Shown here piece by piece: positions 1 through 19,559 of a DNA stretch of 64,000 nucleotides. The stretch's first letter is position 1. The number at the start of each line of letters is the position of its first letter. The notes beneath the pieces are model-generated. The model was not told the origin of the DNA. It was given only the letters and a program-made list of their open reading frames with translations, and did not search any database. The stretch is from Escherichia coli. GTDB lineage: Bacteria > Pseudomonadota > Gammaproteobacteria > Enterobacterales > Enterobacteriaceae. Where the stretch lies: assembly GCF_009931435.1 (NCBI RefSeq), contig NZ_CP043414.1. One strand, written 5' to 3'. The position numbers and the translations under genes are program-made.

Positions 1-3000
1 GCTGCTCCCAAAACGAACCCGTGGCGCACTGGCAGTAGTGTTGAACGCCCAGAGGGGGTCTTTGAATACCTCCATTCCATGCGCCGTGTTTTTACATAAC
101 GTAATGGCAGCAGATGCACTCTCTCCACGTCGACCCGCGCGGCCTGCACGCTGCAAATAATTTGCCGGAGCTGGAGGAACGTTGTTCATTGCCACCAAAC
201 TCATACCACCAATGTCCACCCCCATCTCCATGGTCGTGGAGCAGTTCAGCACATTAACTTTGCCTGACTTAAATTGTTTTTCATTAAACTGGTTCTGCTC
301 AGGCGTTCTCTGCGCAGAGTGTTCCTCCAGACGATACCAGCTATCTTTCAGGGCCAGTCGGTCGCTGCGAGTAGACCATAATCCTTCCTCGCGGGCATGT
401 TGAATCAGCGCATTACTTTCCAGCCACTCCAGACGTTCTTCTCGGGCGATTTCTCCACCACCAGACAAACGCCAGTGACGTACAGGAAGCTCAGGCATTT
501 CAATCAACACTGCTTTTTCAGGTGCAATTTCTTTGCTACCCGGCAAATACGGAGAGTATCCCAGTAACGTGACGTCTAACGCACGTCGAGTATAGGGGCA
601 ACGCCACACTTGCTTTGGACTGTAAAATTCAGCTTGTTGTTTAATATCCAGCTGATAACCCGACTCAAACTGACGTAAGCAGGGTCGAATTGCATCCCAG
701 ACCTCAATCATTAAGTGGTTAACTAACGATTTCCAGTGAGCCTGCTCAGGTTGTATTGCCGGAAAGACTGCAATTAATAGCTTAATGACCCGGTTATAAT
801 GGCGATCGCGTATTTGTGGCCAAAGTTGATCACGTTTCTGCCCTTTGTTTTTTTTATCTGGACCCTGCAGCATTTTTACCGGGAAACGAGCCCCCATCCA
901 GCGAGGGTATTGCTCGTTTTCGTAAAAAACGGCACTGTTTTCACGTATAAAGAAATCAAGAGTAATCTTCAATAAATTACGCCATTCCGCTAATTGCTTA
1001 TCGGGATCGGGTAATAATGTCTTCCAGTCCTGCGGGCAGGTTGTAACTTTATCAATAAATGGATAGTGAATGGCTACCAGACCCAGACTTTCGAGGGTCC
1101 AGGCATTTTTAGGGCGGCGACCAAACTCACTGTATAAACAAAAATCTGCAAACTGTTGTTTAGTAAGATCAAGCCCAGACAATTCTTTAAAACTGCCTCT
1201 CATTCTATCGGCAAGGTCCACACTGCCAACCAGCTGTTCAGACAGTGTTTGCCATGACATGGTTTTCTTCTGCTGATTGCCAGAGTTAGCCTGGAGTATT
1301 TGCATCGCTTCAGCATGATCCGGGCTTAAGGAACTCACCATCGGCTCGATAATTTTAAGTGCCTGAATGTCCGCCGGGCTAAGCTCTTCATTAGCAACCA
1401 TCGCTTTTTTCAGCGCGTCAATAGAGTTTTTTAAAGGAAGGATAGAAAACTGGGCAATAAAACTCTCTAACAATGCGCAGTGTGCCGGGCTGAGCTTTGC
1501 TGATGGCTCATTAATATTGGCCAGCTCCTGGTAGCAAAGAGCTCGCAACGTCGCTTTATCGGCATCCTGCTGTAAGCGGGCAGAAATGCGGGCAGTGCCC
1601 TGACGTGAATCCGTAAAGGTGAGCAGACGTCGACCATTAAACGGTCCTAACTGCTCTTCTCTTGTCTGCGGTAATGGTGAAAACTCCAGCAGAGTAGGAA
1701 TAATTTCATTTAAAAAAAAGGGCGCGCCAAGTCGAAGCGGACGGAATAAAGGATTATTTTTTCGTTGGGTGTCACCACAGCAAACACAAGCAAAGGAATT
1801 ATTACGTCCCTCACCTCGAGATTCCGGTCTTAACAGGTTTATTTCATAGTGCTTTTGCGCTTCACTATCAATTTTCCCCGCCGTCGTTTCTTCCAGTGAA
1901 ATGATATATTTTTCACCATCGCTCGCAATCAGACGATCAAATTGAGAGTTATTGTCTAATTCGTCGTTGTCTTCATCTTCAGAATAAACATCTACATCAA
2001 GAGCAAACTCATCCACTTCGGCAGCGGCGGGTTGCGCTACCAACCAGTTCGTTCCATCACCGCGCATCTCCTCTTTGGCAGACAAATAAGCTGAACCACA
2101 CCCGGAGCAACGTAAAACTTCAAATACCGGCGCACCACAGTCACAATATTGGCGCTGCTCAAACCATACCTGACCAAATGGCCAGTCACTCTGATTTAAT
2201 TCATGTGCTTTATGTGAGCATTGTTTGTTTGAACATGCCCATAGACCCGCCAGTGTTCTGATAAATCCATGCATACGTAATGGCGTAAAAGCCAGTTCAC
2301 CTTCTCGCGATCTTGCCATTAGATCGAGGAGTTGCAGTAGCTCACGGTGATTAATATCTGGCCAGGTTCTTCTGGCAACATTGAGCAACTCACTCAAACG
2401 TACTGCCTGCCGTCCGGGATGAGTTAACGCCTGACGCAATTGCTGGGCCACACGGTAATGACAAAGCTGTTGGTAAAGATCCTGAGGGCTCAGAGATTTA
2501 AGAGAAGTTAAAGATGTGGGGTATTCATGACGAATCAGCGACTCCGATACCCGCGGTATTTGTCGATAACCGCGAACCACTTTGACATCACGTTCTGTAA
2601 CGCCCGCGAGATCAGCGACAAATTTAGCAAGCTCCTTATTACCTTCAGGAGAGTCTTCACCAATAGTGGCAGAGGTCGCGATAATCTGCACAGGTTTATC
2701 TGTGCCGGGTCCAACATTGAAAGCCTGCATAACACGACGTAAAAGCAGCGCTAACTCAGCAGCCTGAGAACCAATATAACTATGGGCTTCATCCAGGACG
2801 ATATACTTTAACATCCCCTGAGACTTTTCGATGATTGGGGCATCTTTACGACGAATCAGCATATATTCCAGCATGGTGGTATTCGTCACCATGATGGAAG
2901 GTGGTGCTTCGTAAATGGCTTCCCGACTCAAAGCTTGTTCAGGTACTTTCAACTGATCTTCCTGAATTTCGTATTTGGTATGCCGGGTTTCGCCATTATA

Positions 3001-3543
3001 TAGCGCGAAGCGTATTTTCCCCTTAAATCCGCGCGTCCATTCGCGAAGCCGCTCCTGTTGACTGTTAATTAATGCATTTAACGGATACAAGAAAATAGCT
3101 TGTGTCCCTGTTAGTGACTGGCGGGTCGATTTTTGCTGACGAATAAGATCTTCCAGAACCGGTACCATAAAGCATTCTGTTTTCCCGGATCCCGTACCGC
3201 TGCTCACTAACAAGGATTTTTTGTCTTCCAGAATTGTTCGCCACGCAGTGAGTTGATGACGAAATGGCACTGGCGCTTTGCTCAATGCATCAACCAGCGG
3301 GCTGGAGATCAGCTTGTCCCGCAAATCCTCCATTGTTTCATCCGCAGGCATCCAGCCGAATGTACTTTCGAATACCGGGTCTGCAAGCAGTGACCCCTCC
3401 TGACCGGGAGGCTGAAAATATTGTGATTCCAGATAATGAGTCAACGACTTGCTCCGCAATGCCAACTGACTTACCACCGACCTCACCGCACGCTGATGAA
3501 GCTGATTTAGAAGTGGCGCATAATGCAGTTGCTGAACGTCCAT
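1..3543 (-). CDS. Large superfamily-2 DEAH helicase, C-terminus runs off the window (at least 1181 codons visible); candidate Druantia DruE-like
   Basis: Minus-strand frame appears uninterrupted from ATG at 3541-3543 to position 1 (checked by hand at several points; not in ORF track because no stop in window). Walker A SSGTGSGKT near 3179-3205, DEAH box VLDEAH at 2782-2799, motif V MEMGVDIGG near 205-231, motif VI QRAGRAGRRGE near 121-153. Cys clusters (FACVCCGD, CSNKQCSH, CDCGAPVFEVLRCSGCG) lie between about 1770 and 2260. Confidence 0.75.
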   Translation of the reverse strand, partial: MDVQQLHYAPLLNQLHQRAVRSVVSQLALRSKSLTHYLESQYFQPPGQEGSLLADPVFESTFGWMPADETMEDLRDKLISSPLVDALSKAPVPFRHQLTAWRTILEDKKSLLVSSGTGSGKTECFMVPVLEDLIRQQKSTRQSLTGTQAIFLYPLNALINSQQERLREWTRGFKGKIRFALYNGETRHTKYEIQEDQLKVPEQALSREAIYEAPPSIMVTNTTMLEYMLIRRKDAPIIEKSQGMLKYIVLDEAHSYIGSQAAELALLLRRVMQAFNVGPGTDKPVQIIATSATIGEDSPEGNKELAKFVADLAGVTERDVKVVRGYRQIPRVSESLIRHEYPTSLTSLKSLSPQDLYQQLCHYRVAQQLRQALTHPGRQAVRLSELLNVARRTWPDINHRELLQLLDLMARSREGELAFTPLRMHGFIRTLAGLWACSNKQCSHKAHELNQSDWPFGQVWFEQRQYCDCGAPVFEVLRCSGCGSAYLSAKEEMRGDGTNWLVAQPAAAEVDEFALDVDVYSEDEDNDELDNNSQFDRLIASDGEKYIISLEETTAGKIDSEAQKHYEINLLRPESRGEGRNNSFACVCCGDTQRKNNPLFRPLRLGAPFFLNEIIPTLLEFSPLPQTREEQLGPFNGRRLLTFTDSRQGTARISARLQQDADKATLRALCYQELANINEPSAKLSPAHCALLESFIAQFSILPLKNSIDALKKAMVANEELSPADIQALKIIEPMVSSLSPDHAEAMQILQANSGNQQKKTMSWQTLSEQLVGSVDLADRMRGSFKELSGLDLTKQQFADFCLYSEFGRRPKNAWTLESLGLVAIHYPFIDKVTTCPQDWKTLLPDPDKQLAEWRNLLKITLDFFIRENSAVFYENEQYPRWMGARFPVKMLQGPDKKNKGQKRDQLWPQIRDRHYNRVIKLLIAVFPAIQPEQAHWKSLVNHLMIEVWDAIRPCLRQFESGYQLDIKQQAEFYSPKQVWRCPYTRRALDVTLLGYSPYLPGSKEIAPEKAVLIEMPELPVRHWRLSGGGEIAREERLEWLESNALIQHAREEGLWSTRSDRLALKDSWYRLEEHSAQRTPEQNQFNEKQFKSGKVNVLNCSTTMEMGVDIGGMSLVAMNNVPPAPANYLQRAGRAGRRGESASAAITLCKNTAHGMEVFKDPLWAFNTTASAPRVRFGSS

Positions 3544-6500
3544 CAATGACATACTCCTGCTTGTTCAAAATAATATTGATAGATTACCCCTAATTGCTGT
3601 GGGGCTTGCTGATAGTGAAATTCAAAAAGCGCAGACAGTTGATGTATCAGGTTATTATCTTTTTGGGTTAACAGCGCTGCGACTAACATCAAATTAAAAC
3701 GTTTTTCAAGCCGTGAGTGATATTTATCTTCAATCCAAAGCTTATTAAAAACAGATTTTAACTCTGGAGTAATAGCACTAGACCAAAGTTCTTTAGGGAA
3801 GATACTGATACGCCCAAAGCTGTCGGGGTTCCTTAATAGCATCTGTTTAGCTTCATTAAACTGCTCACGACTAACAGTTGGCAATACATCACAACCGGTT
3901 GGTAGGCTCTCACTATATGTAAGTAACATATTCGCAATGGGAGCCAGCCGACGATCGATATGTGCACGATGGTTCATAAAAGCAATAAAGGGTTGCAATA
4001 TATGTAATGCTAATGTTTTATCGTTAATCTGTTTTTCCAGATAAGTCCAACATTTTTGGAAAACATCTTTCCAGATTGAAACGGGAATCCATCCCCATGA
4101 AAAGGGTAATTCTTCCTGTATATCATAAATCGTATCGCTATCACCAGAAAGACATGATGATATTAACAATTGAACAACCACGCGGTAATTACTCGAAATA
4201 CCTCTGAACAAGTCCAGATCCAGCAAGGATAAGCCATTATTCATTTTGTACTTCTTAATATACTCTGTTAATAAACAGCAATAATTTTGCAATGGGTTGT
4301 TATCTATTTCAAAAATTAGCTCATTAAAATTTTTTTTGCGCTGTTCTGGGTCTGCTTCGCATAGAGCATTTAGTAATAAATCATTTGTCTGCAATACAGG
4401 TAGCATCCATTTAATTACTGGTGCAATGCGAGCTGTACCATCAAGTTTTCCCACAATTAACCATGGACTATCCTGAACATTCAGAGCTGAAAGATCATAA
4501 GCAAATTCATCTTTTTTTAGCAATGATTTGTGTAAGCCAGGATCCTTAAGAGAAATAGCATCAACAACCAGTTCGTCTATTCTATTTGCAGGAAAAACAA
4601 CAGAATTTTTTATATCAACCAGCAACCCTTGATCGTGTTCAATAAAACTACCATCGTAGCGTTTAATATTGAGTGTTGCTTTATCCTTTCCAAATCTGTC
4701 AGAGTAAAAATCAACACATAATGTACTATTGCTGTTCCATGCACATGCCAGCATAGCATTTAGCAAATTATAGTTCTCATAAAGTGAAATTTGTTGTAAT
4801 TTGTCATTGCGTCCTGATAAAAGAGGAAGGTCGGCATGTAAATAACGGAATTTTTCAGCTACTGGATTTTCATCCAATAACTCGATATTAAGATATCCTC
4901 TTCCAGCACATGATATGGTTAATAACTCAGCATCTATTCCATGCAAATGTGCTATAGATGCCACACCATCAAAATGAACAGAACCATCATTAGTTACAAA
5001 TCGGCCACCGCTAACCGGCTTAGGTAATAATAGTTTAAGATTAGAACCATCTTTCCAGGAGACCCGTAAATCAACGGTATTTTCCAGCATCTGCGATGAA
5101 TTATAATAAATAGCACACTCGTTTTGTGAATAATCGGACTTAAGTGTTACTTTTTCATTGTTTGAATATTTATCAATTCTAGTATCCGTTATACCAGAAA
5201 GCATAATAATGCCTTGCTGAGCACTCTCAGGTATAATATTAATATCGAAGTCTGCTGGTAAAACTACAACTTTACCGCTAAATAAAACCTCATCATTAAC
5301 TATTCGCCGGACTTCTATCTGTCCTTTTGGCATTTCTGATGCGACAGAATACCAGGCATTGTTACCTGAACGAATGGAACGCCAAAAAAGTTCTTTCTCC
5401 GGTACAATGCCATATTGCAGATCCTTTTTCCAACCGATCTTCGGCCAGGCTCGATGGACAGGATAATCCGATTTAACCAGTTCAACTTCTGTCGATTTAA
5501 TATAATATTCAATCGCAGAATCATAAAGTTGCTGGGTGCGAATTGTACAAACAGCACCATCATGTAAAACAACGCTAAATACTCCACTTATTTTAGTTAA
5601 GCTGCGTTCACTGTTTTTCAGCAACCTTGGGATATCAAACTCACCTTCTCCACTAATATCTAAATGGCTATTTTTCGGTAGCGAAATAAACAGAGCATTT
5701 AGCCTGGAACTCACAGACCCCATACCGACAAGTTTTAGCTGCGATTCACTCTCATTCATCGCTTCAAAAACCCAGGGGAGTTCTTCAGTAAGTTCATAAC
5801 CGCCTTTTGGAATTGTGTGGCCTAACAGAATTGGACCTTCATGAAGCGACAACGAGATTTCGGCCATTGCATCTGCACCAGAGAGCTTTTGCATCGCAAT
5901 AGGTAATAACTCGACCCGCCAATCTTGCTGCTCATAACGGCTTAGCATTGCCAACCTTGCCCCGCCATTTCTCCATTTTCCTGAAATGATGAGTCGGGTC
6001 TGCTCCGGCTGAATATGGCATTCAAACAAAGAGGTTAACTGTTCTGTACGCATTGTGGCCGGGAATCGGAACCGGGCATCACAATACCAACTGTCATCAA
6101 CATCGACCCAGATTCTTTCAACCTGAAGACTACTTGCACTGCGTATTTCAGAAGATTGAGAAAGTAATCGCCTTACAATCTCTGCAGCATTCGCTTCGGG
6201 GAGAACGAGTGGAAGTTGAAGATGCCAGTCTGGAGAGAGCTTACGTAATGCAGAAACGGGATCACTGCTTTGAGGTGGATGCTCACTAAGTAATCGGCAG
6301 AGAGTCTCGCAGAATTCACCGGCTATTTCATAGACCAGTTCGTTTTGCATTGTGACAGGAATCGTATCGCCTAATTCTTGTGCAATTTTAGCGGCAGGAT
6401 ATTGAGATGCTTGCCCACGAAGCGCCTGATATATCCTTCTGAAATAGGTAATCAAATAACCGCTCTCATTTTCAATCATGCGGATAGGTAAACCACCTTC

Positions 6501-6902
6501 ACAAGCCAGTGTATGCAGATAACCCGAAGCTTGCCCCAGGTTTCTTATCTTTCTTTTCCAGTAGCGAATGCCATCATTAACCAGCTTCTGTCGATGAACA
6601 TACGGAACTTTCCAGTCAATAGAATCTAAAATTGTGTCCCATTTAGGGTGTCCGACCGTATGAGTCCGGCGGATAAACTCTGCGGCATATATGCTAAATA
6701 GAACATCGCTATAGGAAATGAATATCGTTCTTGGATAACTACGAGGGGCATATGTACGCAGTAGTTCTGCCAAACTTTCGTACTCTGTATCAGTACAACG
6801 GTAAGCATATAACGCCCGTCCATCAGCTCCGGATAATGAACGGCGACTAAAAAACATGTTAAGCCATTGCAAAAGTGGGTTAACTGGAGTTTTCACAAGC
6901 AA
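3543..6902 (-). CDS. Hypothetical 1119-aa protein, no recognisable motifs; upstream partner of the helicase (candidate DruH-like)
   Basis: Single long ORF in track; AT-rich; its TGA stop overlaps the helicase ATG (ATGA at 3541-3545), implying translational coupling. Confidence 0.6.
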   Translation of the reverse strand: MLVKTPVNPLLQWLNMFFSRRSLSGADGRALYAYRCTDTEYESLAELLRTYAPRSYPRTIFISYSDVLFSIYAAEFIRRTHTVGHPKWDTILDSIDWKVPYVHRQKLVNDGIRYWKRKIRNLGQASGYLHTLACEGGLPIRMIENESGYLITYFRRIYQALRGQASQYPAAKIAQELGDTIPVTMQNELVYEIAGEFCETLCRLLSEHPPQSSDPVSALRKLSPDWHLQLPLVLPEANAAEIVRRLLSQSSEIRSASSLQVERIWVDVDDSWYCDARFRFPATMRTEQLTSLFECHIQPEQTRLIISGKWRNGGARLAMLSRYEQQDWRVELLPIAMQKLSGADAMAEISLSLHEGPILLGHTIPKGGYELTEELPWVFEAMNESESQLKLVGMGSVSSRLNALFISLPKNSHLDISGEGEFDIPRLLKNSERSLTKISGVFSVVLHDGAVCTIRTQQLYDSAIEYYIKSTEVELVKSDYPVHRAWPKIGWKKDLQYGIVPEKELFWRSIRSGNNAWYSVASEMPKGQIEVRRIVNDEVLFSGKVVVLPADFDINIIPESAQQGIIMLSGITDTRIDKYSNNEKVTLKSDYSQNECAIYYNSSQMLENTVDLRVSWKDGSNLKLLLPKPVSGGRFVTNDGSVHFDGVASIAHLHGIDAELLTISCAGRGYLNIELLDENPVAEKFRYLHADLPLLSGRNDKLQQISLYENYNLLNAMLACAWNSNSTLCVDFYSDRFGKDKATLNIKRYDGSFIEHDQGLLVDIKNSVVFPANRIDELVVDAISLKDPGLHKSLLKKDEFAYDLSALNVQDSPWLIVGKLDGTARIAPVIKWMLPVLQTNDLLLNALCEADPEQRKKNFNELIFEIDNNPLQNYCCLLTEYIKKYKMNNGLSLLDLDLFRGISSNYRVVVQLLISSCLSGDSDTIYDIQEELPFSWGWIPVSIWKDVFQKCWTYLEKQINDKTLALHILQPFIAFMNHRAHIDRRLAPIANMLLTYSESLPTGCDVLPTVSREQFNEAKQMLLRNPDSFGRISIFPKELWSSAITPELKSVFNKLWIEDKYHSRLEKRFNLMLVAALLTQKDNNLIHQLSALFEFHYQQAPQQLGVIYQYYFEQAGVCH

Positions 6903-7113
6903 CCTGCCTTCCTTTGATACAATTCGTAACAGGTTACTATCATCATAAAAAAGCTCAACCCGATGAACTCGCTAAAAATGAGACAAATCATTTATATCTC
7001 GAAAAAACTTGTTACAATCATGAGCGCTACACCGAACTTAACCATATAAATTATGTGCGTTTTGTTTATTTTTTAAACAATTACAACTATCCATTATTTA
7101 CACAGGTATCAAA

Positions 7114-8766
7114 ATGTTAGCGCAGCTTTTTGAGCAGTTGTTTCAATCGATAGACTCTACACTGATCACCAATATTTTCATCTGGGCTGTTATATTCGTA
7201 TTTTTATCAGCGTGGTGGTGTGACAAAAAAAATATACATAGTAAGTTTAGAGAATATGCTCCAACCTTAATGGGGGCATTAGGTATTCTGGGTACTTTCA
7301 TTGGTATTATTATTGGGTTACTCAATTTTAATACTGAAAGTATTGATACCAGCATCCCCGTATTATTAGGCGGCCTAAAAACAGCATTCATTACAAGCAT
7401 TGTAGGTATGTTTTTTGCCATTTTATTTAATGGAATGGATGCTTTCTTTTTTGCCAATAAACGAAGTGCGTTAGCAGAAAATAACCCTGAATCTGTTACA
7501 CCTGAACATATCTATCATGAATTAAAAGAGCAGAACCAGACTCTGACTAAATTAGTCTTGGGTATTAACGGTGATAGTGAAGGTTCTCTTATTGCTCAAA
7601 TAAAATTACTACGTACTGAGATTAGCGATTCCTCGCAGGCACAATTAGCTAATCACACTCATTTCAGTAATAAGCTTTGGGAACAACTTGAACAATTTGC
7701 AGATCTAATGGCAAAAGGTGCTACAGAACAAATTATTGATGCTTTACGACAAGTCATTATTGATTTTAATGAAAATTTAACTGAACAGTTTGGTGAAAAC
7801 TTTAAAGCACTTGATGCCTCTGTAAAAAAACTTGTTGAGTGGCAGGAAAATTATAAAACGCAAGTTGAGCTGATGTCAGAACAATATCAACAAAGTGTCG
7901 AGTCTCTGGTTGAAACAAAAACTGCGGTTGCCGGGATTTGGGAAGAATGTAAAGAAATTCCTCTGGCTATGTCTGAACTGCGTGAAGTGCTTCAGGTGAA
8001 CCAACATCAAATCAGCGAACTCTCCCGCCATTTAGAAACCTTTGTCGCTATCCGCGATAAAGCTACAACCGTATTACCTGAAATACAGAACAAAATGGCT
8101 GAAGTGGGTGAACTGCTGAAATCCGGAGCTGCAAATGTTAGTGCATCTCTTGAGCAAACCAGCCAGCAAATACTTCTTAATGCAGATTCAATGCGCGTGG
8201 CCCTGGATGAAGGTACCGAAGGATTCAGACAATCGGTTACCCAAACACAACAAGCATTTGCCTCGATGGCACATGATGTCAGCAATTCCTCCGAAACTCT
8301 AACCAGCACGTTAGGTGAAACAATTACTGAAATGAAACAAAGTGGTGAAGAATTCCTGAAGTCACTAGAGTCGCACTCGAAAGAATTGCATAGAAATATG
8401 GAACAAAATACGACTAATGTAATTGATATGTTCAGTAAGACTGGTGAAAAGATTAACCATCAACTATCCAGTAATGCCGATAATATGTTTGATTCAATCC
8501 AGACATCATTTGATAAGGCAAGTGCAGGGCTGACTTCTCAAGTCAGAGAATCAATTGAAAAATTTGCTCTATCCATCAACGAGCAGTTACATGCTTTTGA
8601 GCAAGCAACTGAACGTGAGATGAACCGTGAAATGCAATCATTAGGTAATGCTCTGCTTTCAATCAGCAAAGGTTTTGTCGGTAACTATGAAAAACTTATT
8701 AAAGATTACCAAATAATTATGGGACAGTTACAAGCATTAATTTCTGCTAATAAACATCGAGGGTAA
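7114..8766 (+). CDS. zorA: MotA/ExbB/TolQ-like membrane protein with long coiled-coil tail; ZorA-like (Zorya)
   Basis: Three N-terminal hydrophobic helices (LITNIFIWAVIFVFLSAWW, LMGALGILGTFIGIIIGLL, IPVLLGGLKTAFITSIVGMFFAILF) followed by about 440 aa of Q/E/L-rich heptad-like sequence; first gene of a three-gene operon. Confidence 0.65.
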   Translation: MLAQLFEQLFQSIDSTLITNIFIWAVIFVFLSAWWCDKKNIHSKFREYAPTLMGALGILGTFIGIIIGLLNFNTESIDTSIPVLLGGLKTAFITSIVGMFFAILFNGMDAFFFANKRSALAENNPESVTPEHIYHELKEQNQTLTKLVLGINGDSEGSLIAQIKLLRTEISDSSQAQLANHTHFSNKLWEQLEQFADLMAKGATEQIIDALRQVIIDFNENLTEQFGENFKALDASVKKLVEWQENYKTQVELMSEQYQQSVESLVETKTAVAGIWEECKEIPLAMSELREVLQVNQHQISELSRHLETFVAIRDKATTVLPEIQNKMAEVGELLKSGAANVSASLEQTSQQILLNADSMRVALDEGTEGFRQSVTQTQQAFASMAHDVSNSSETLTSTLGETITEMKQSGEEFLKSLESHSKELHRNMEQNTTNVIDMFSKTGEKINHQLSSNADNMFDSIQTSFDKASAGLTSQVRESIEKFALSINEQLHAFEQATEREMNREMQSLGNALLSISKGFVGNYEKLIKDYQIIMGQLQALISANKHRG

Positions 8767-8772
8767 TCGATC

Positions 8773-9480
8773 ATGGATAAGATTATAGGGAAACAATTAC
8801 CTAAAAAAGATCAAGATAATGAACACTGGGTATCCATGTCAGACCTAATGGCAGGGCTGATGATGGTTTTTATGTTCATATCTATTGCTTATATGCACTA
8901 CGTACGTATTGAAAAAGAAAAAATTAAAGAAGTTGCCGTAGCCTACGAGAATGCTCAGTTACAGCTTTATAATGCTCTGGATATTGAGTTTGCAAAGGAT
9001 TTACAAGACTGGGATGCAGAGATCGATAAACAGACTCTGGAGGTTCGATTTAAATCACCGGATGTTTTATTTGGCTTAGGAAGCACAGAGCTAAAACCAA
9101 AGTTTAAACTCATTCTTGACGACTTCTTTCCTCGCTACCTAAAAGTTCTAGATAATTATCAGGACCATATTACTGAAGTCCGCATTGAAGGTCACACAAG
9201 TACTGACTGGACAGGAACAACGAATCCTGATATTGCTTATTTTAATAATATGGCACTATCACAAGGTCGTACACGTGCAGTATTACAATACGTTTATGAC
9301 ATAAAAAATATCGCGACACACCAACAATGGGTTAAAAGTAAATTTGCCGCAGTAGGTTATTCATCTGCACATCCCATTCTTGATAAAACCGGCAAGGAGG
9401 ATCCTAATCGCTCTCGTCGTGTCACCTTCAAAGTTGTAACAAATGCCGAATTGCAGATTAGAAAGATTATTCAGGAGTAA
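8773..9480 (+). CDS. zorB: MotB/OmpA-like peptidoglycan-anchoring protein; ZorB-like
   Basis: N-terminal TM segment (LMAGLMMVFMFISIAYM) and C-terminal OmpA/MotB-like region (NMALSQGRTRAVLQYV, NRSRRVTF); starts 6 nt after zorA stop. Confidence 0.65.
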   Translation: MDKIIGKQLPKKDQDNEHWVSMSDLMAGLMMVFMFISIAYMHYVRIEKEKIKEVAVAYENAQLQLYNALDIEFAKDLQDWDAEIDKQTLEVRFKSPDVLFGLGSTELKPKFKLILDDFFPRYLKVLDNYQDHITEVRIEGHTSTDWTGTTNPDIAYFNNMALSQGRTRAVLQYVYDIKNIATHQQWVKSKFAAVGYSSAHPILDKTGKEDPNRSRRVTFKVVTNAELQIRKIIQE

Positions 9481-9483
9481 GAG

Positions 9484-10587
9484 ATGAAATTATCTATCGA
9501 CATTTCAGAACTTATTCAATTAGGGAAGAAAATGTTACCAGAAGGAGTCGATTTTTTTCTGGATGAATCCCCTATTGACTTTGATCCTATAGATATTGAG
9601 TTATCCACGGGTAAAGAAGTTAGTATCGAAGATCTTGACCCTGGTAGCGGGCTTATCTCTTATCATGGCCGCCAGGTTCTTTTATATATTCGGGACCATT
9701 CAGGGCGTTATGATGCGGCTATCGTAGATGGCGAAAAAGGAAAACGTTTTCATATTGCCTGGTGCAGAACTCTTGATGAAATGCGCCATAAAAATCGATT
9801 TGAAAGGTATCATGCAACTAACCGCATAGATGGTTTATTCGAAATTGATGATGGTTCAGGTCGGAGCCAGGATGTTGATTTACGGGTATGTATGAATTGC
9901 CTCGAACGACTTAATTATAAAGGAAGTATTGATAAACAACGAAAAAGAGAGATTTTTAAATCATTCTCATTAAATGAGTTTTTTTCAGATTATAGTACCT
10001 GTTTTCGTCATATGCCTAAGGGTATCTATGACAAAACAAATAGTGGGTATGTCGAAAACTGGAAAGATATATCTAAATCAATACGAGAAAAGGCAAATTA
10101 TGTTTGTAATGATTGTGGCGTGAATTTATCAACCGCCAAAAACTTGTGCCATGTCCATCATAAAAATGGCATCAAATATGATAATCACCATGAAAACCTT
10201 CTTGTTCTGTGCAAGGATTGCCATCGAAAACAGCCCCTCCACGAAGGTATATTCGTTACCCAAGCTGAGATGGCTATCATTCAACGTTTACGTTCCCAAC
10301 AAGGGTTATTAAAAGCAGAATCCTGGAATGAAATATATGACCTGACTGATCCATCAGTGCATGGTGATATTAATATGATGCAACATAAAGGCTTTCAACC
10401 TCCTGTTCCTGGGTTAGATCTTCAAAACTCAGAACATGAAATTATTGCAACCGTAGAAGCTGCATGGCCAGGCCTTAAAATTGCAGTTAACCTTACTCCC
10501 GCCGAAGTCGAAGGATGGAGAATATATACCGTGGGTGAGCTGGTTAAAGAAATACAAACAGGAGCCTTTACGTCAGCAACGTTGTAA
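9484..10587 (+). CDS. zorE: HNH endonuclease-domain protein; ZorE-like (Zorya type II effector)
   Basis: C-terminal HNH signature CNDCGVNLSTAKNLCHVHHKNG...NHHENLLVLCKDCH; starts 3 nt after zorB stop. Confidence 0.6.
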   Translation: MKLSIDISELIQLGKKMLPEGVDFFLDESPIDFDPIDIELSTGKEVSIEDLDPGSGLISYHGRQVLLYIRDHSGRYDAAIVDGEKGKRFHIAWCRTLDEMRHKNRFERYHATNRIDGLFEIDDGSGRSQDVDLRVCMNCLERLNYKGSIDKQRKREIFKSFSLNEFFSDYSTCFRHMPKGIYDKTNSGYVENWKDISKSIREKANYVCNDCGVNLSTAKNLCHVHHKNGIKYDNHHENLLVLCKDCHRKQPLHEGIFVTQAEMAIIQRLRSQQGLLKAESWNEIYDLTDPSVHGDINMMQHKGFQPPVPGLDLQNSEHEIIATVEAAWPGLKIAVNLTPAEVEGWRIYTVGELVKEIQTGAFTSATL

Positions 10588-10597
10588 ATTCCGAAAC

Positions 10598-10623
10598 TCC
10601 GTGAAAGTTAAGACTTTCACGGA
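10598..10623 (+). other. 11-bp stem hairpin just after zorE stop (terminator-like, no U-tract)
   Basis: tccgtgaaagt-taag-actttcacgga. Confidence 0.35.
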
Positions 10624-10796
10624 AGATAAATAAAATTCTCCTGATTTGTGACTCAAATTATAAAAGTCGTTTATGGCATAACTTGTCTGTTTTTTTGGTG
10701 TAATAGGTATAAAGGCATATGCTATGGTTAGCCTTATATTTAAAACTTTCCTCATACGGGTGAAGGTTAAAGCTTGGTAGATAGGTTACAGTCACA

Positions 10797-11406
10797 ATGA
10801 ATAAAGCAATAACGGTGCTTGCTATAATGATGGCTTCATTTTCCGTAAATGCGTATGTATTACCGGAAACGCCTGTGCCATTTAAAAGTGGTACCGGAGC
10901 AATTGATAACAACACTGTCTACATTGGTTTAGGTAGCGCAGGTACGGCATGGTACAAGCTGGAGAAACAGACCAAAGATAAAAAAATGGACAGCGTTAGC
11001 TGCATTTCCTGGTGGACCGAGAGATCAAGCAACTTCTGCATTTATTGATGGCAATCTGTATGTGTTTGACGGCATTGGCAAAAACAGTGAGGGCTTGACT
11101 CAGGTATTTAATGACGTTCACAAATACAACCTCAAAACCAATAGCTGGGTTAAATTGATGTCGCACGCGCCGATGGGCATGGCGGGTCATGTGACATTTG
11201 TACACAACGGCAAGGCTTATGTTACTGGCGGTGTTAACCAGAATATCTTCAATGGCTATTTTGAAGATCTTAACGAAGCTGGAAAAGATTCAGCGTACCG
11301 GTCACCGGAGAACTGGATGACGGTACTGCGAAGCAGTCATTTCAGTCGGGGGATGATTGTAGACAAATTTGTTGACGCTATTTTGCGGTTTTGGCGTGAA
11401 GGGTGA
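10797..11406 (+). pseudogene. nanM: N-acetylneuraminate epimerase (nanM/yjhT) N-terminal fragment, frameshifted and truncated
   Basis: ORFs 10797-11048 and 11062-11406 together carry the NanM signal peptide and first Kelch-like repeats (MNKAITVLAIMMASFSVNAYVLPETPVPFKSGTGAIDNNTVYIGLGSAGTAWYKL; FDGIGKNSEGLTQVFNDVHKYNLKTNSWVKLMSHAPMGMAGHVTFVHNGKAYVTGGVNQNIFNGYFEDLNEAGKD) but are split by a frameshift and end far short of the full-length protein. Confidence 0.6.
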
Positions 11407-11413
11407 GCGTTCA

Positions 11414-12064
11414 TTAATTTGATTTATTTGCATCCATCAACGCTTTTAACTGCTCCGGCGAAAACGGTGGTTTGCGTCGGTGCAACATCGCATGGCAATT
11501 AGGGCACACAGGAAGCAAATCATTAACTGGATCCAGCTGGTAATTCTCTTTAATGGCTGAAAGCGGCACCAGGTGATGCACATGGATAAAGCCTTCAGCG
11601 ATATCACCATAGATCTTCACCAGATCAACGCCGCATACGTTGCACTGGCATCCATGATGTTCGACCGCTTTATCTCGGGCCTTTTTATCGCGTTCATAGC
11701 GGTTTACTGTCACCTTTATCGCCGCACCTTCAACGTATGTCTCCTGCGACGGCAACTCATCCGGGAACAGAACGTCGGCTATGGGAGCCGCAGCGGCTTT
11801 ATCCTGATGAATATGAAATCCCTGCTCTATGAGTAGTTTGACGCATTTAGATTTTATTCCGCCGGTGAAATCCGCAGGGGTAAATTGCGTCCCCGTCATC
11901 AATGTCGCTGCGATGCCAGCAATCGCCTTCGAGGGGTAACGTCGGCCATGATATTCAATCTCATACAACCGCGCAGGCTGGAACTGATGAGTTTCTCCCG
12001 CATCCCATAAATGGATAGCTTCGATGATATACCGCCGCGGAAGATGATCAGGGAGTTTATTCAT
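11414..12064 (-). CDS. HNH endonuclease with about 140-aa N-terminal domain of unknown function
   Basis: C-terminal HHGCQCNVCG...HVHHLVPLS...NDLLPVCPNCHAMLH (zinc-finger HNH); N-terminal region has no motif I recognise. Confidence 0.7.
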   Translation of the reverse strand: MNKLPDHLPRRYIIEAIHLWDAGETHQFQPARLYEIEYHGRRYPSKAIAGIAATLMTGTQFTPADFTGGIKSKCVKLLIEQGFHIHQDKAAAAPIADVLFPDELPSQETYVEGAAIKVTVNRYERDKKARDKAVEHHGCQCNVCGVDLVKIYGDIAEGFIHVHHLVPLSAIKENYQLDPVNDLLPVCPNCHAMLHRRKPPFSPEQLKALMDANKSN

Positions 12065-12143
12065 GGAGAATGTCCTTATACGTTCTCAGAACAGGCAGCA
12101 AAAAAACAAATGAGATCAAGGTAATATATCTTCACTTGCAGGC

Positions 12144-13073
12144 TTGAACAGCAGAAAATTTGCGAGCATGATCGCAATTATTTCACTGCCAGGGATATCA
12201 ATGGCTTCCAGTAAATCGCTACAGCAGGCAATTGCCAATATAAAAATCTGGCACAAGGGTGAACAGCGCGCGCCGCATAAGCCATTGTTATTGCTATACG
12301 TATTAGCGGGATACCTGAATGGACATCCGCGCCTTTTCGATTATGGCTCGGAAATCTACGAACCTCTGCACAGTTTACTGGAACGTTTTGGGCCACAGCG
12401 TTCACAGTACCGACCTGATATGCCGTTCTGGCGATTACAAGGCGACGGATTCTGGCAATTACACAATGCCGAACTTTGCTCAACAGCAGGGAGTAGCCGA
12501 CAACCGCCAGTGAAGGAACTGACCGAACACCGCGTTGCAGGCGGTTTCGATGAACAGCACTATGCCCTGGTAATCGGCAATAAAAAACTCATCAATACCC
12601 TGGCGCAACAGATACTCGAAGCGCACTTCACCGAGAGCATTCAGGAAGAAATTGCTGACGAGCTGGGTTTTGATCTCCAGCAAATCCGTAAACAGCGCGA
12701 CCCGTTATTTCGCAAACTTGTATTGCGCGCATATAACTACCAGTGCGCGATATGTGGCTTTAATATGCGCCACGATGACACCACCGTCGCACTGGAAGCA
12801 GCGCATATAAAATGGAAACAGCACGGCGGTCCTTGTGAAATTCCTAATGGCCTGGCGCTTTGTGCAATACACCATAAAGCCTTTGATAAAGGATCGATTG
12901 GCCTGGATGAAAATATGCGGGTACTGGTCTCGGATGCGGTAAACGGCGGAGGGATCGTTGAGAAACTATTCTGGGATTTTGACGGGAAAACTATTGCGTT
13001 ACCACAGGTGCGTAAAAATTACCCTTTTGAGGGGTTTGTGGAGTGGCATCGAAAAGAGGTTTTTAGGGGGTGA
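12144..13073 (+). CDS. HNH endonuclease with about 190-aa N-terminal domain of unknown function (start may be a downstream Met, e.g. 12201)
   Basis: HNH signature CAICGF...AAHIKWKQHGGP...NGLALCAIHHKAFDKG; divergent from the 216-aa HNH gene across a 79-bp spacer. Confidence 0.7.
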   Translation: MNSRKFASMIAIISLPGISMASSKSLQQAIANIKIWHKGEQRAPHKPLLLLYVLAGYLNGHPRLFDYGSEIYEPLHSLLERFGPQRSQYRPDMPFWRLQGDGFWQLHNAELCSTAGSSRQPPVKELTEHRVAGGFDEQHYALVIGNKKLINTLAQQILEAHFTESIQEEIADELGFDLQQIRKQRDPLFRKLVLRAYNYQCAICGFNMRHDDTTVALEAAHIKWKQHGGPCEIPNGLALCAIHHKAFDKGSIGLDENMRVLVSDAVNGGGIVEKLFWDFDGKTIALPQVRKNYPFEGFVEWHRKEVFRG

Positions 13074-13114
13074 GGTTGATAACTATCGCAGTATGTTCAA
13101 TATTGCTGACATAA

Positions 13115-13297
13115 TCAGTGCAGGATCTTGCCGCTAGTTTACAACTCGCCTTCGATAGCGGCGCAAAACGAGTTCTGTTGCCGATATCCTCGGCTATGGA
13201 TATTCCAACAGTTCCGGCAGAGTTGTTTACCAAGTTTCAGGTAAGTTTTTACTCAGAACCGGTTGATGCGGTTTATAAGGCGCTGGATGTGAATTAA
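13115..13297 (+). pseudogene. C-terminal remnant of a Lon-like protease gene (possibly BrxL-like), no start codon
   Basis: Open frame with no Met translates to SVQDLAASLQLAFDSGAKRVLLPISSAMDIPTVPAELFTKFQVSFYSEPVDAVYKALDVN, resembling the extreme C-terminus of Lon-family proteases (compare Lon AAHRGGIKTVLIPFENKRDLEEIP...). Confidence 0.4.
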
Positions 13298-13628
13298 CAC
13301 ATTCCTCAGCTTATTTACAAAAGGATTATTCCCATTTGATATAATATCAGTGCCAATTTACTTTTTTCAATGGAATATATCTCGGCTAAATAACAATAAA
13401 ACTTATCGCTAATGGATTAAATAAACAATTTTCTAATTTATTTCACCACCTTTGATATAGAAATTGATGGTGTTGTCGCTGCCATTGCTTATGGTGATGA
13501 TAAAATCCACGTTTCTGGATCGGTGCGTAGAAAATCATCACTTCCTTGATATTTTGATGCGATATGATCATACCGTTCCGTAGTACCAATTTCAACTTCA
13601 GGCTAAACCCCAACATTAAAAAAATTAG

Positions 13629-13672
13629 AGTTATTCACTGATTATATTATCAATAATATAATCAGTGAATAA
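13629..13672 (-). terminator. Perfect 20-bp inverted repeat immediately downstream of the 682-aa gene, followed on the minus strand by a T-run; likely intrinsic terminator
   Basis: gttattcactgattatatta / tcaa / taatataatcagtgaataac; minus-strand downstream sequence ctctaatttttttaatg. Confidence 0.5.
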
Positions 13673-13695
13673 CATGGACTATATAATAAATTGCT

Positions 13696-15744: not shown

Positions 15745-16421
15745 CCTATTGTCTAAATTACTATAAAATTAGCCACTTAACTAATAATTATAAATTTCAT
15801 CTTTTGCACCTTGCATTTTTATAACCAATGAAATCTACAACAAGCAACTGATGGATAATCCGATATTGGTCGCATTTAATGGCATGGTAGCAAAGTTTTC
15901 ATCACATACCTCCTTTGCACCAGAATAAACGCCAGAGACCTGAAATTGCGAGTACACTACAGAAATTGTACTGCCGGTCCCATCAGCATAAAACCATAGT
16001 TACACAGGTAATCATCATTATTCACCAAGATAATAAATATTATTCGGTAGAATAGCGTTCTCAGGTGGTCAGTAAAATTGTCTTCAACAAGATGTCTGCG
16101 CATCTCGTCTGCTAGCCCTACATAACTGCTCTCGACCGAAACTATTTATTGAATGTTCACCAAGGTGGGCGTGGAGACAAAATGACGTCTTTTGATATTA
16201 GCTACCTGAGCCACATGGTCAAAACGTTCAAGTAGCATAGCGAAACCACCCTGCCCACGTAATGTGGACGATGCAGCTTCCAGCCAGAGCAAACTTGGGA
16301 CCATCGACTACCAAATGAAGAATACTGAACTGCTTTTCTGGCAGGCCTATATACTGCACGGATATGGGTGATTTCAGACACAAAAAAAGCCGCTCTTGAG
16401 CGACTCGATTTGCATACGGTG

Positions 16422-16506
16422 TGGTGCCGAAGGCCGGACTCGAACCGGCACGTATTTCTACGGTTGATTTTGAATCAACTGCGTCTACCGATTTCGCCAC
16501 TTCGGC
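16422..16506 (-). tRNA. leuX: tRNA-Leu (anticodon CAA), leuX
   Basis: Minus-strand sequence GCCGAAGTGGCGAAATCGGTAGACGCAGTTGATTCAAAATCAACCGTAGAAATACGTGCCGGTTCGAGTCCGGCCTTCGGCACCA, with T-loop GGTTCGAGTCC and 3' CCA; matches recalled leuX. Confidence 0.9.
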
Positions 16507-16701
16507 ACTGAAGAGGTATGCGGAAAACGTTGTGGATTATACCTGTCACGCGCCACCATGCAAGCGCCAGCTTGCTCGCACCTCGCTAAGTGCTGAAATT
16601 TTCAGCATTGCATTCCGCGATGTGTAACCTTTGTCACACTCCAGGCACCCCGCCCTACCATGCTCTACACTTCCCAGACAACACCAGAGAAGGACAAAAA
16701 T

Positions 16702-17721: not shown

Positions 17722-17724
17722 AAA

Positions 17725-18288: not shown

Positions 18289-18504
18289 TTAAAATCTCCT
18301 GAATCATCTTACCTGCGGCGATACTACGCCTGGCGGCATAATAATTTCACGTTTTTTTATTTCTGTTGATAAGAATTACAAGGCACATCACGTTATGCGT
18401 AACATAGTAATGTAACAATTTTCTGACGTGATCTTCATCACAAATAATGACAATTAAAACCGCTTAAATGCTTCCGAGGTGTCTACCTGACCAGTGAGGA
18501 ATTT

Positions 18505-19536: not shown

Positions 19537-19559
19537 GAGATAAATAAAGGAATAATACA

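What the first reader, a model, noticed from the sequence alone, without database searches (positions are those of the whole stretch)
1..6902. Translationally coupled operon: 1119-aa unknown protein plus giant DEAH helicase (Druantia type III-like candidate, or a related undescribed helicase system)
Two very large minus-strand genes lie in AT-rich DNA next to Zorya genes. The upstream 1119-aa protein has no motif I can recognise, and its TGA stop overlaps the helicase ATG (ATGA at 3541-3545). The helicase has clear SF2 motifs but exceeds 1181 aa and runs off the window. A large unknown protein followed by a large helicase matches what I recall of Druantia type III (DruH then DruE); I cannot confirm this without a search, and the unusual helicase layout leaves open a distinct or unclassified system.
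Basis: partly seen in the sequence, partly recalled or inferred. Interest (0 to 1): 0.8.

Follow-up and report, generated by a model that had tools for sequence, protein, structure and literature searches.

The report
Known Druantia type III defence operon
These two very large genes are druH and druE, the already well-studied two-gene Druantia type III anti-phage system of E. coli, in its usual place beside Zorya II, so this is an ordinary instance of a known system.

Summary
A 1119-aa minus-strand ORF (3543-6902) is followed by a DEAH helicase gene that starts at 3543 and runs off the left edge. The junction is TGATG (a 1-nt overlap), not ATGA.

The 1119-aa protein matches PADLOC DruH3 over its full length (2551 bits). 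The helicase matches DruE3 (1360 bits), far better than any other type. Both match solved structures named DruH (9tud) and DruE (9tu7) almost residue for residue.

The operon is 99.1% (DruH) and 99.7% (DruE part) identical in protein to that of E. coli ATCC 8739. That operon has been cloned with its native promoter and shown to protect against phages, including with DEAH mutants. About 10% of complete E. coli genomes carry the operon. Zorya II lies upstream on the opposite strand, and in relatives ARMADA II lies downstream.

[quoted passage not shown] In E. coli and P. aeruginosa the defence is non-abortive. Whether DruE and DruH cut DNA is disputed among 2026 preprints.

Nothing supports an undescribed system. 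Novelty: already known. Interest: low.

The parts
3543..6902 (-). druH (1119 aa; YjiT / STY4851-ECs_5259 family), the first gene of the Druantia III operon
   Evidence: ORF. PADLOC DruH3 PDLC00041, 2551 bits, full length. NCBIfam NF038336, 988 bits. PDB 9tud 'DruH', 2567 bits. 1109 of 1119 aa identical to ATCC 8739 DruH. No Pfam or PHROGs domain.
1..3543 (-). druE, N-terminal 1181 of 2104 codons (YprA/MrfA-like SF2 DEAH helicase), cut by the left window edge
   Evidence: Translation. PADLOC DruE3 PDLC00037, 1360 bits, profile positions 4-1141 of 2055. 1177 of 1181 aa identical to ATCC 8739 DruE. The full-length relative (L001 9229-15543) matches PDB 9tu7 at 4861 bits.
3541..3545 (-). druH stop / druE start overlap, TGATG (1 nt shared), indicating translational coupling
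   Evidence: Sequence read. Tight junctions are also seen in distant druH-druE loci: 8-nt and 4-nt overlaps, and gaps of 7, 9 and 15 nt.
2659..3261 (-). DruE RecA1 / DEAD domain (aa 95-295), with motif I GSGKT (nt 3178-3192) and motif II DEAH (nt 2782-2793)
   Evidence: Pfam PF00270, E = 6e-24. Motifs located. K121 and D251/E252 are the ATP-site residues in the published structures, and mutating them abolishes defence.
340..2658 (-). About 770 aa inserted between RecA1 and the conserved end of RecA2 (aa 296-1068). Contains Cys clusters CDC 467, CSGC 479 and CVCC 586.
   Evidence: No Pfam domain here. Cys motifs. The literature assigns this stretch to a BrxA-like domain, a beta-barrel and the INS and Stalk ('protruding') domains that mediate dimerisation and DruH contact.
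124..339 (-). DruE RecA2 C-terminal part (Helicase_C, aa 1069-1140), with motif VI QRAGRAGR (nt 130-153)
   Evidence: Pfam PF00271, E = 2e-12. Motif located.
6210..6902 (-). DruH N-terminal alpha-helical region (aa 1-231), the best-conserved part of the family, with invariant charged residues R21, E40, E75, R78, R79, R117 and E135
   Evidence: Six-sequence alignment across alpha- and gammaproteobacterial DruH: 22 of the 38 invariant columns fall in the first 231 aa. tblastn matches to distant homologs cover mainly aa 1-250 to 1-640. A conserved N-terminal cleft is the proposed exonuclease site in P. aeruginosa DruH.
6903..7113 (.). 211-bp divergent intergenic region between druH and zorA, presumed to hold the promoters of both operons
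   Evidence: Five sigma-70-like matches in 6800-7200 against 1.2 expected; these are consensus matches only. The literature describes zorABE as divergently transcribed from druHE, and the ATCC 8739 operon is active from its native promoter.
7114..10587 (+). Neighbouring, separate system: Zorya type II (zorA 7114-8766, zorB 8773-9480, zorE 9484-10587), the reported synergy partner of Druantia III
   Evidence: PADLOC ZorA2 999 bits, ZorB2 347 bits, ZorE2 586 bits. RefSeq names. Synergy literature.

Best explanation
This is the canonical E. coli Druantia type III anti-phage system (subtype III-A, 'cluster 11'). It is a translationally coupled druH-druE operon on a defence island inserted at the leuX tRNA-Leu gene. 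Zorya II is transcribed divergently upstream. In near-identical genomes ARMADA II lies downstream, beyond the window edge.

Shown for operons 99% identical to this one, and agreed by all groups: both proteins are required, and protection leaves the infected cell alive (non-abortive). DruE is a dimeric YprA/MrfA-like SF2 helicase that cannot load on blunt or intact duplex DNA. It loads on exposed 3' single-stranded DNA or forks and unwinds 3'-to-5' using its DEAH ATPase. Phage replication, recombination or injection intermediates are therefore the trigger, and heavily modified T-even DNA escapes.

My commitment on the disputed steps, which is inference: the helicase, not the C-terminal PLD-like pocket, is DruE's essential output in this E. 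coli clade. I put that at about 0.6. DruH then acts on the single strands that DruE exposes, binding them and probably trimming or nicking them through its family-wide conserved N-terminal charged cleft. I put that at about 0.5. Final destruction of phage DNA is shared with other nucleases such as ZorE and RecBCD.
For: Identity:
- PADLOC DruH3 2551 bits and DruE3 1360 bits.
- NCBIfam YjiT_fam 988 bits.
- PDB 9tud (DruH) and 9tu7 (DruE) match at 2567 and 4861 bits.
- 1109 of 1119 and 1177 of 1181 aa are identical to ATCC 8739.
- 537 of 5426 complete E. coli genomes carry the pair at 95-99.5% identity.
- Gene order and context match RefSeq annotation.
- The druH->druE order is kept in 5 of 6 distant plasmid loci.

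Architecture:
- DEAD and Helicase_C lie in the window. The MrfA Zn-binding domain (DUF1998) lies in the off-window part of the near-identical L001 protein.
- All published ATP-site and DNA-path residues that were checked are present, except that position 97 is Q, not K.

Function, from papers:
- The ATCC 8739 operon with its native promoter protects. Deleting either gene, or mutating DEAH, abolishes defence. Cultures do not collapse at high multiplicity of infection.
- DruE unwinds 3'-tailed and forked DNA, not blunt or 5'-tailed DNA.
- Deletion mutants in ATCC 8739 and EDL933 become phage-sensitive.

Disputed steps:
- There is no HxK(x4)D motif anywhere in the full-length DruE.
- Two groups found the PLD domains dispensable.
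- The invariant charged residues of DruH cluster in aa 1-231.
- Two groups report DruH nuclease activity.
Against: - Only 56% of druE lies in the window, so the intactness of its C-terminal 923 codons in this genome is unverified.
- This exact allele is untested. It differs from ATCC 8739 by 10 DruH and 4 DruE substitutions.
- Most mechanistic sources are May 2026 preprints that contradict each other.
- Wu et al. and Loeff et al. report ATP-dependent DruE nuclease activity and loss of defence in nuclease-pocket mutants: R1258A in E. coli, D1740A in P. aeruginosa.
- Hu et al. see DruH only as an ssDNA binder inhibited by ATP.
- Himpich et al. see no nuclease activity for DruE, and DruH's function remained enigmatic to them.
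- A mycobacterial type III system is reported to act by abortive infection and to be activated by a tail protein.
- I could not map the P. aeruginosa DruH catalytic residues onto this protein residue by residue.
Confidence: 0.92

Rival explanations
1. Same Druantia III system, but acting as a true helicase-nuclease degradation machine. DruH is a 3'-5' exonuclease that trims forked DNA to leave 5' overhangs. It then recruits DruE, breaking the autoinhibited DruE dimer into a 1:1 DruE-DruH complex. DruE's C-terminal PLD-like pocket is the essential effector that degrades phage DNA.
For: Loeff, Chanez and Jinek reconstituted this for the P. aeruginosa system, where the D1740A and E266Q mutants lose DNA degradation and defence. 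Wu et al. report ATP/Mg-dependent cleavage of long DNA by E. coli ECOR19 DruE, and loss of defence in R1258A. The conserved N-terminal charged cluster of DruH is present here.
Against: [quoted passage not shown] One of them saw no reproducible nuclease activity. No canonical HxK(x4)D motif exists in the full-length E. coli DruE. E. coli DruE and DruH did not form a stable complex in two studies.
Confidence: 0.3
2. Same Druantia III system, but with no nuclease of its own. DruE unwinds phage DNA from 3' ends. DruH, released from ATP inhibition as nucleotide pools fall, coats the separated strands and immobilises the genome. Other systems or host nucleases finish the job.
For: This is the model of Hu et al. 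for the ATCC 8739 system. It rests on DruH-ssDNA and DruH-ATP structures, and on reduced defence in the R1031A, H1062A and R1064A mutants. R1031, H1062, R1064 and K1067 are all present in the window's DruH. Synergy with ZorE fits the idea of a borrowed nuclease.
Against: Druantia III protects alone in K-12 strains that lack Zorya, ARMADA and restriction systems, so something must still clear the phage. Two groups measure DruH nuclease activity. The H1062-K1067 segment aligns to a gap in five distant DruH homologs, so an ATP switch built on it is unlikely to be the family-wide mechanism (weak alignment).
Confidence: 0.25
3. [not shown]
For: Xu et al. 2013 reported reduced fliC expression and motility in EDL933 deltaZ5898. 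RefSeq carries this product name on the closest hit.
Against: Himpich et al. found no effect of deleting druE in EDL933 on fliC mRNA or on motility. The protein is a DNA helicase structurally and biochemically. Its best non-Druantia relatives are the DNA repair helicase MrfA/YprA and the defence helicases DpdJ, DrmA and Cas3. The gene is always paired with druH and sits in defence islands.
Confidence: 0.03
4. A distinct, undescribed helicase-based system that only resembles Druantia.
For: Only the unusual spacing of the helicase motifs and the lack of any Pfam domain in the 1119-aa protein.
Against: There are full-length, top-scoring matches to the DruH3 and DruE3 models, and near-identity to proteins deposited and published as DruH and DruE. 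The motif spacing is a described feature of the family.
Confidence: 0.01

Closest known systems
Druantia type III (III-A, 'cluster 11') of E. coli ATCC 8739 / NCTC 12923, ECOR19 and EDL933 (z5897-z5898)
   Same: Same two genes, same order, same lengths (1119 and 2104 aa) and same divergent Zorya II neighbour. DruH is 99.1% and the DruE N-terminal part 99.7% identical in protein. The structures 9tud and 9tu7 are of essentially this protein.
   Different: There are 10 substitutions in DruH (N96D, S165A, H211Q, K311R, L604Q, N787D, I792K, C901G, K1058E, N1059D, written ATCC 8739 residue -> window residue) and 4 in the DruE part. The island here abuts tRNA-Leu leuX, as in the O157-type context. 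In ATCC 8739 the right flank is IS elements and cadC.
Druantia type III of Pseudomonas aeruginosa (PaDruantia; Loeff, Chanez, Jinek 2026) and of Mycolicibacterium smegmatis (Li and He 2026)
   Same: The same DruH + DruE two-gene architecture, and both genes are required.
   Different: These are distant clades. The distant DruH homologs I aligned are only 17-22% identical. PaDruantia targets T2 and T6 and needs its nuclease pocket. The mycobacterial system is reported as abortive and triggered by a tail protein. The E. coli clade is weak on T-even phages with modified DNA.
Druantia types I, II and IV
   Same: They share the signature helicase DruE. DruE1, DruE2 and DruE4 models match at 251-368 bits.
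   Different: Those types pair DruE with other genes and have no DruH; only DruE is shared across subtypes, and DruH is specific to type III. Their DruE carries a non-PLD (Vsr-like) C-terminal domain. Here the partner is DruH and the best model is DruE3 by about 1000 bits.
DISARM class I (DrmA, DrmB, DrmC, DrmD, DrmMI) and ARMADA type II (ArmA-D)
   Same: DruE resembles a fusion of DrmA (helicase), DrmB (DUF1998) and DrmC-like PLD units. ArmC is its closest paralogous lineage. ARMADA II lies directly downstream in near-identical genomes.
   Different: The druHE operon has no methyltransferase and no SNF2 helicase. DrmA models match at only 39-41 bits. ARMADA and DISARM have no DruH.
MrfA/YprA DNA repair helicase of Bacillus subtilis (PDB 6ZNP)
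   Same: The same helicase family: an SF2 DEAH core plus the MrfA Zn-binding domain, with 3'-5' polarity on DNA.
   Different: MrfA is 751 aa and acts in mitomycin C repair. DruE has about 770 aa inserted in the core, a dimerisation stalk, PLD-like C-terminal domains and a DruH partner. The sequence match is only 71 bits.

Membership tests
Druantia type III | A DruH-family protein (about 1100 aa; YjiT / STY4851-ECs_5259 family) | tested here: met
   PADLOC DruH3 PDLC00041, 2551 bits, profile 1-1117 of 1117. NCBIfam NF038336, 988 bits against a cut-off of 150. PDB 9tud 'DruH', 2567 bits.
Druantia type III | A DruE helicase of the type III clade | tested here: met
   DruE3 models match at 1360, 1060 and 725 bits, against 368 bits or less for DruE1, DruE2 and DruE4. 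The window holds profile positions 4-1141 of 2055. The full-length protein of the 99.5%-identical genome matches PDB 9tu7 at 4861 bits.
Druantia type III | druH immediately upstream of druE on the same strand, as a two-gene operon | tested here: met
   TGATG overlap at 3541-3545. The same order is seen in RefSeq genomes and in 5 of 6 distant plasmid loci.
Druantia type III | DruE architecture: SF2 DEAH core plus MrfA Zn-binding domain (DUF1998) | tested here: met
   DEAD at 95-295 and Helicase_C at 1069-1140 are in the window. MZB PF09369, E = 7e-12, lies at about aa 1612-1691 of the near-identical L001 protein, which is outside the window.
Druantia type III | Two C-terminal PLD-like domains in DruE (III-A) | tested here: inconclusive
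   This region lies outside the window. In the L001 full-length protein Pfam finds no PLD family, and there is no HxK(x4)D motif. The PLD-like fold is reported from cryo-EM structures. I ran no fold comparison.
Druantia type III | No other Druantia-specific partner genes (those of types I, II and IV) | tested here: met
   The upstream neighbours are ZorA2, ZorB2 and ZorE. The downstream neighbours in near-identical genomes are a DrmD-like helicase, a PglX-like methyltransferase and a second large helicase, which together are ARMADA II.
Druantia type III | Confers anti-phage protection that needs both genes and the DEAH motif | not testable with these tools
   Shown experimentally for the 99%-identical ATCC 8739, ECOR19 and EDL933 operons. 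Not shown for this exact allele.
[not shown]
   Claimed in 2013 and not reproduced in 2026. By sequence the window protein is the same orthologue that RefSeq sometimes labels this way.
DISARM class I | Separate DrmA, DrmB and DrmC genes plus a methyltransferase in the same operon | tested here: not met
   The operon has only two genes and no methyltransferase. DrmA models match at only 39-41 bits, over the Helicase_C region alone.
Zorya type II (neighbour) | ZorA2, ZorB2 and ZorE in one operon | tested here: met
   999, 347 and 586 bits to the type II models. RefSeq names.

The most novel reading that the evidence does not exclude
The published, conflicting roles for DruH may reflect real clade differences. 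The residues that bind ATP and ssDNA in E. coli DruH (H1062, R1064, K1067) lie in an 11-residue segment (aa 1057-1068, nt 3699-3734). In my alignments that segment is an insertion absent from five distant DruH homologs. The invariant charged residues of the family (R21, E40, E75, R78, R79, R117, E135) all lie in the N-terminal helical domain, which is proposed as the exonuclease cleft in the Pseudomonas protein. On this reading the ATP-gated ssDNA clamp would be an Escherichia/Klebsiella-clade add-on to an ancestral N-terminal nuclease or DNA-binding site. Two of this window's ten substitutions against ATCC 8739 (K1058E, N1059D) fall inside that segment.
Probability: 0.25. Interest if true: 0.3.

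Novelty: already known. Interest (0 to 1): 0.07.

Why it matters
As a discovery it does not matter. The system was defined in 2018, it is in PADLOC and DefenseFinder, and it is carried by about one in ten complete E. coli genomes. Since 2025-2026 it has been covered by cryo-EM structures and several mechanistic studies on operons 99% identical to this one.

Its practical value is correct annotation. The two 'unknown' giants here are druH and druE, not a motility RNA helicase and not a new system. The window also samples the Zorya II - Druantia III (- ARMADA II) defence island at leuX, which accounts for much of the phage resistance of EHEC-type strains and so bears on phage therapy.

The one live scientific question is who cuts the DNA: DruE, DruH or neither. 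Sequence analysis of this window cannot settle that.

Tried and rejected
- Pfam and PHROGs on DruH found nothing significant, so no domain-level clue beyond the family models.
- A search for a canonical PLD HxK(x4)D motif, or any HxK after residue 1600, in the full-length DruE found none. I therefore did not endorse an 'active PLD nuclease' from sequence.
- The weak PDB matches of DruH aa 817-932 to designer pentatricopeptide repeat proteins (E = 2e-4 to 1e-3, with no stretch passing on its own) were judged to be helical-repeat noise.
- The alternative druE start at ATG 3552 was rejected. The Shine-Dalgarno-like AGGAG would then be only 1 nt away, and both RefSeq and the PDB constructs use 3543.
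- Mapping the P. aeruginosa DruH residues R22, K28, E64 and E220 onto this protein by number fails: the window has S22, G28, Y64 and R220.
- A promoter scan of the druH-zorA spacer gave consensus matches only. No terminator-like site was found.
- Rfam found nothing in 1-17000 except tRNA-Leu.
- For the neighbouring 682-aa orphan, the AlphaFold2 model built on a 7-sequence alignment was too poor to search with (pLDDT 51.5, pTM 0.34). I ran no fold search.
- The low-GC patches at 32-38 kb were checked. They lie among ordinary core genes.


Full report
**The observation.** The window holds a 1119-codon minus-strand ORF at 3543-6902 with a TTG start. RefSeq uses the same start in near-identical genomes, and an AAGGAAGG Shine-Dalgarno-like element sits 4 nt upstream. 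Directly downstream on the same strand a second frame is open from ATG 3543-3541 to base 1. That is 1181 codons, truncated only by the window edge. The junction read on the minus strand is TGATG, so stop and start share one base.

The helicase carries GSGKT (118-122), DEAH (251-254), SAT (291-293) and QRAGRAGR (1131-1138). Pfam DEAD covers aa 95-295 and Helicase_C covers aa 1069-1140, so about 770 residues separate the two halves of the core. GC content is 0.398 for druH and 0.474 for the druE part, against 0.504 for the core genes of the window.

**What it is.** The PADLOC models settle it. The 1119-aa protein matches DruH3 (PDLC00041) at 2551 bits over the whole profile. The helicase matches DruE3 (PDLC00037) at 1360 bits over profile positions 4-1141 of 2055. 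DruE1, DruE2 and DruE4 models reach 368 bits or less, and DrmA, Cas3, DpdJ and BrxH models reach 97 bits or less. NCBIfam places the first protein in YjiT_fam, the STY4851/ECs_5259 family, at 988 bits against a cut-off of 150. The PDB holds a 1119-residue chain deposited as DruH (9tud, 2567 bits). It also holds a 2108-residue chain (9tu7 and five further entries) that matches the full-length helicase of the closest genome at 4861 bits over residues 1-2104.

**Distribution and context.** The 7.1-kb stretch occurs once per genome in 537 of 5426 complete E. coli genomes at 95-99.5% identity. In the two relatives I fetched, druE is 2104 codons. After a 223-bp gap it is followed by a DrmD-like helicase, a 1640-aa PglX-like methyltransferase and another helicase of about 2100 aa. 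The literature names these genes ARMADA type II.

Upstream and divergent in the window are ZorA2, ZorB2 and ZorE. The island ends at tRNA-Leu(CAA) at 16422-16506. This matches the published description of the O-island 172 type context at leuX.

**Relation to tested systems.** The window's DruH is 1109/1119 identical to that of E. coli ATCC 8739, and the DruE part is 1177/1181 identical. The substitutions are listed.

- Hu et al. cloned the ATCC 8739 operon with its native promoter. They showed protection against diverse phages, loss of protection on deleting either gene or mutating DEAH, and no culture collapse at high multiplicity of infection.
- Himpich et al. tested the same operon.
- Bell et al. 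deleted it in ATCC 8739.
- Li et al. deleted it in EDL933.
- Wu et al. tested the closely related ECOR19 system.

**Conservation beyond E. coli.** A tblastn search of plasmids found distant DruH homologs at 23-29% identity, mostly over the N-terminal part. In five of the six loci I opened, the homolog lies immediately upstream of a 1700-2100-aa DEAD/DEAH helicase. These loci are from Pseudomonas luteola, Sinorhizobium, Methylocystis, Marinobacter and Azotobacter. Their junctions are an 8-nt overlap, a 4-nt overlap, and gaps of 7, 9 and 15 nt. The sixth locus is disrupted by an IS3-family element. The coupled two-gene layout is therefore a family property.

**How it works: the agreed part.**

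- DruE is a YprA/MrfA-family SF2 helicase that forms dimers.
- It does not act on blunt duplex DNA. It loads on 3' single-stranded tails or forks and unwinds 3'-to-5'.
- Its ATP site uses K121, R165, D251, E252, R1135 and R1139. All of these are present in the window protein.
- Mutating K121 or D251 abolishes defence.
These helicases carry a BrxA-like domain, a beta-barrel and INS/Stalk ('protruding') domains inserted in RecA2. The stalk mediates dimerisation and DruH contact.
- The trigger is therefore exposed single-stranded DNA in phage replication, recombination or injection intermediates. Hypermodified T-even DNA escapes.

**How it works: the disputed part.**

- Wu et al. call DruE a helicase-nuclease with one active PLD domain. 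They call DruH a sensor with Ig-like domains and a dimer-dependent nicking activity.
- Loeff et al., working on the P. aeruginosa system, find DruH to be a 3'-5' exonuclease that licenses a DruE-DruH degradation complex at forks.
- Hu et al. find no canonical PLD motif and that the PLD domains are dispensable. They see DruH as an ssDNA binder inhibited by ATP.
- Himpich et al. see no reproducible DruE nuclease activity, also find the PLD domains dispensable, and find that DruH associates with DruE only indirectly.

**My own checks on the dispute.** First, the full-length E. coli DruE has no HxK(x4)D motif, and no HxK at all after residue 1600. This agrees with Hu et al.

Second, I aligned six DruH proteins that are 17-22% identical. 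Of the 38 invariant columns, 22 fall in the first 231 residues. They include R21, E40, E75, R78, R79, R117 and E135. This fits a conserved functional site in the N-terminal helical domain, which is where Loeff et al. place the exonuclease cleft.

Third, H1062, R1064 and K1067 are the E. coli residues that contact ATP and ssDNA. They lie in an 11-residue segment that aligns to a gap in all five distant homologs, under both MAFFT modes. The C-terminal 150 residues are barely alignable, so this last point is tentative.

I therefore commit to the following, as inference. The helicase is DruE's essential output in this clade (about 0.6). DruH acts on the exposed strands through its conserved N-terminal cleft, binding and probably trimming them (about 0.5). 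Clearance of phage DNA is shared with other nucleases.

**Verdict.** This is an ordinary, apparently intact copy of a known and intensively studied defence system, as far as the window shows. Novelty: already known. Interest: low.

**Caveats.** 44% of druE lies outside the window, this exact allele is untested, and most of the mechanistic sources are unreviewed preprints that disagree.

Noticed in passing
window 13696-15744 (-): A 682-aa ORF in very AT-rich DNA (GC 0.328), lying between the restriction-like genes and leuX. It has no hit in PADLOC, NCBIfam, PHROGs, Pfam or PDB sequences. Homologs occur only in Enterobacterales, at 41-75% identity outside E. coli; UniRef labels one of them a NERD domain protein. 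A PD-(D/E)xK-like signature is invariant in a 7-sequence alignment: D481, D487, E494-L-K496. It may be an uncharacterised nuclease or a single-gene defence candidate. The AlphaFold2 model was too poor to use (pLDDT 51.5).
   Followed up: partly
window 11414-12064 (-) and 12144-13073 (+): A divergent pair of HNH proteins. One is a 216-aa HNH endonuclease, with PHROGs HNH hits and weak type IV restriction matches. The other is a 309-aa 'phosphorothioated DNA-binding restriction endonuclease' (NF045808, 436 bits against a cut-off of 180). I saw no dnd/PT modification genes among the ORFs listed in 1-20000. Parts of this stretch occur in almost all E. coli genomes next to nanM and nanS.
   Followed up: partly
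window about 10797-11406 (+): Short ORFs that RefSeq annotates in the closest genome as a frameshifted, truncated N-acetylneuraminate epimerase (nanM) pseudogene. It looks like a scar at the junction between the Zorya/Druantia cargo and the older nanCMS-linked region.
   Followed up: no
L001 1-9005 and L002 1-9005 (left of the window edge in near-identical genomes): Downstream of druE lie a 952-aa DrmD-like SNF2 helicase (350 bits, below the DISARM cut-off of 610), a 1640-aa PglX-like methyltransferase and a second helicase of about 2100 aa. [quoted passage not shown] PADLOC v2 and NCBIfam do not yet name them. Whether the window's own genome has them cannot be seen.
   Followed up: partly
window 9484-10587 (+), zorE: This ZorE (367 aa) matches the long ZorE model (PDLC00645, 375 positions) end to end. 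The shorter ZorE models (about 270-283 positions) stop near residue 275. It therefore has the extra C-terminal region of about 90 aa that Wu et al. report as typical of Druantia-associated, synergy-competent ZorE.
   Followed up: partly
window 3699-3734 (-), DruH aa 1057-1068: The segment IEDKYHSRLEKR holds the published ATP- and ssDNA-contacting residues H1062, R1064 and K1067. It aligns to a gap in five distant DruH homologs. It also holds two of this allele's ten differences from ATCC 8739 (K1058E, N1059D). The alignment in this region is weak.
   Followed up: partly
window 3253-3255 (-), DruE residue 97: Wu et al. list 'K97' among the residues that shape the nucleotide pocket. This protein has Q97 in the context FRHQLTAW, which looks like the helicase Q-motif, and ATCC 8739 shows no difference from the window at this position. 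This is probably a strain difference or a slip in the preprint.
   Followed up: no
RefSeq records NZ_CM148325.1 and NZ_CM172715.1 (hits H1, H14): Newer PGAP annotation names DruE 'motility-regulating DEAH-box RNA helicase' and DruH 'STY4851/ECs_5259 family protein', while it names the Zorya genes correctly. The DruE name rests on a 2013 phenotype that was not reproduced in 2026.
   Followed up: yes
window 16422-16506 (-) and 16660-64000: tRNA-Leu(CAA) (leuX) marks the island boundary. To its right lies ordinary E. coli core genome. In the closest genome the first genes are annotated ahr, idnK and idnD; further along, NCBIfam matches include valS, rraB and an ornithine carbamoyltransferase. The two low-GC dips at 32-34 kb and 36-38 kb coincide with a 407-aa ORF and a 581-aa ORF that have no NCBIfam match.
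   Followed up: partly
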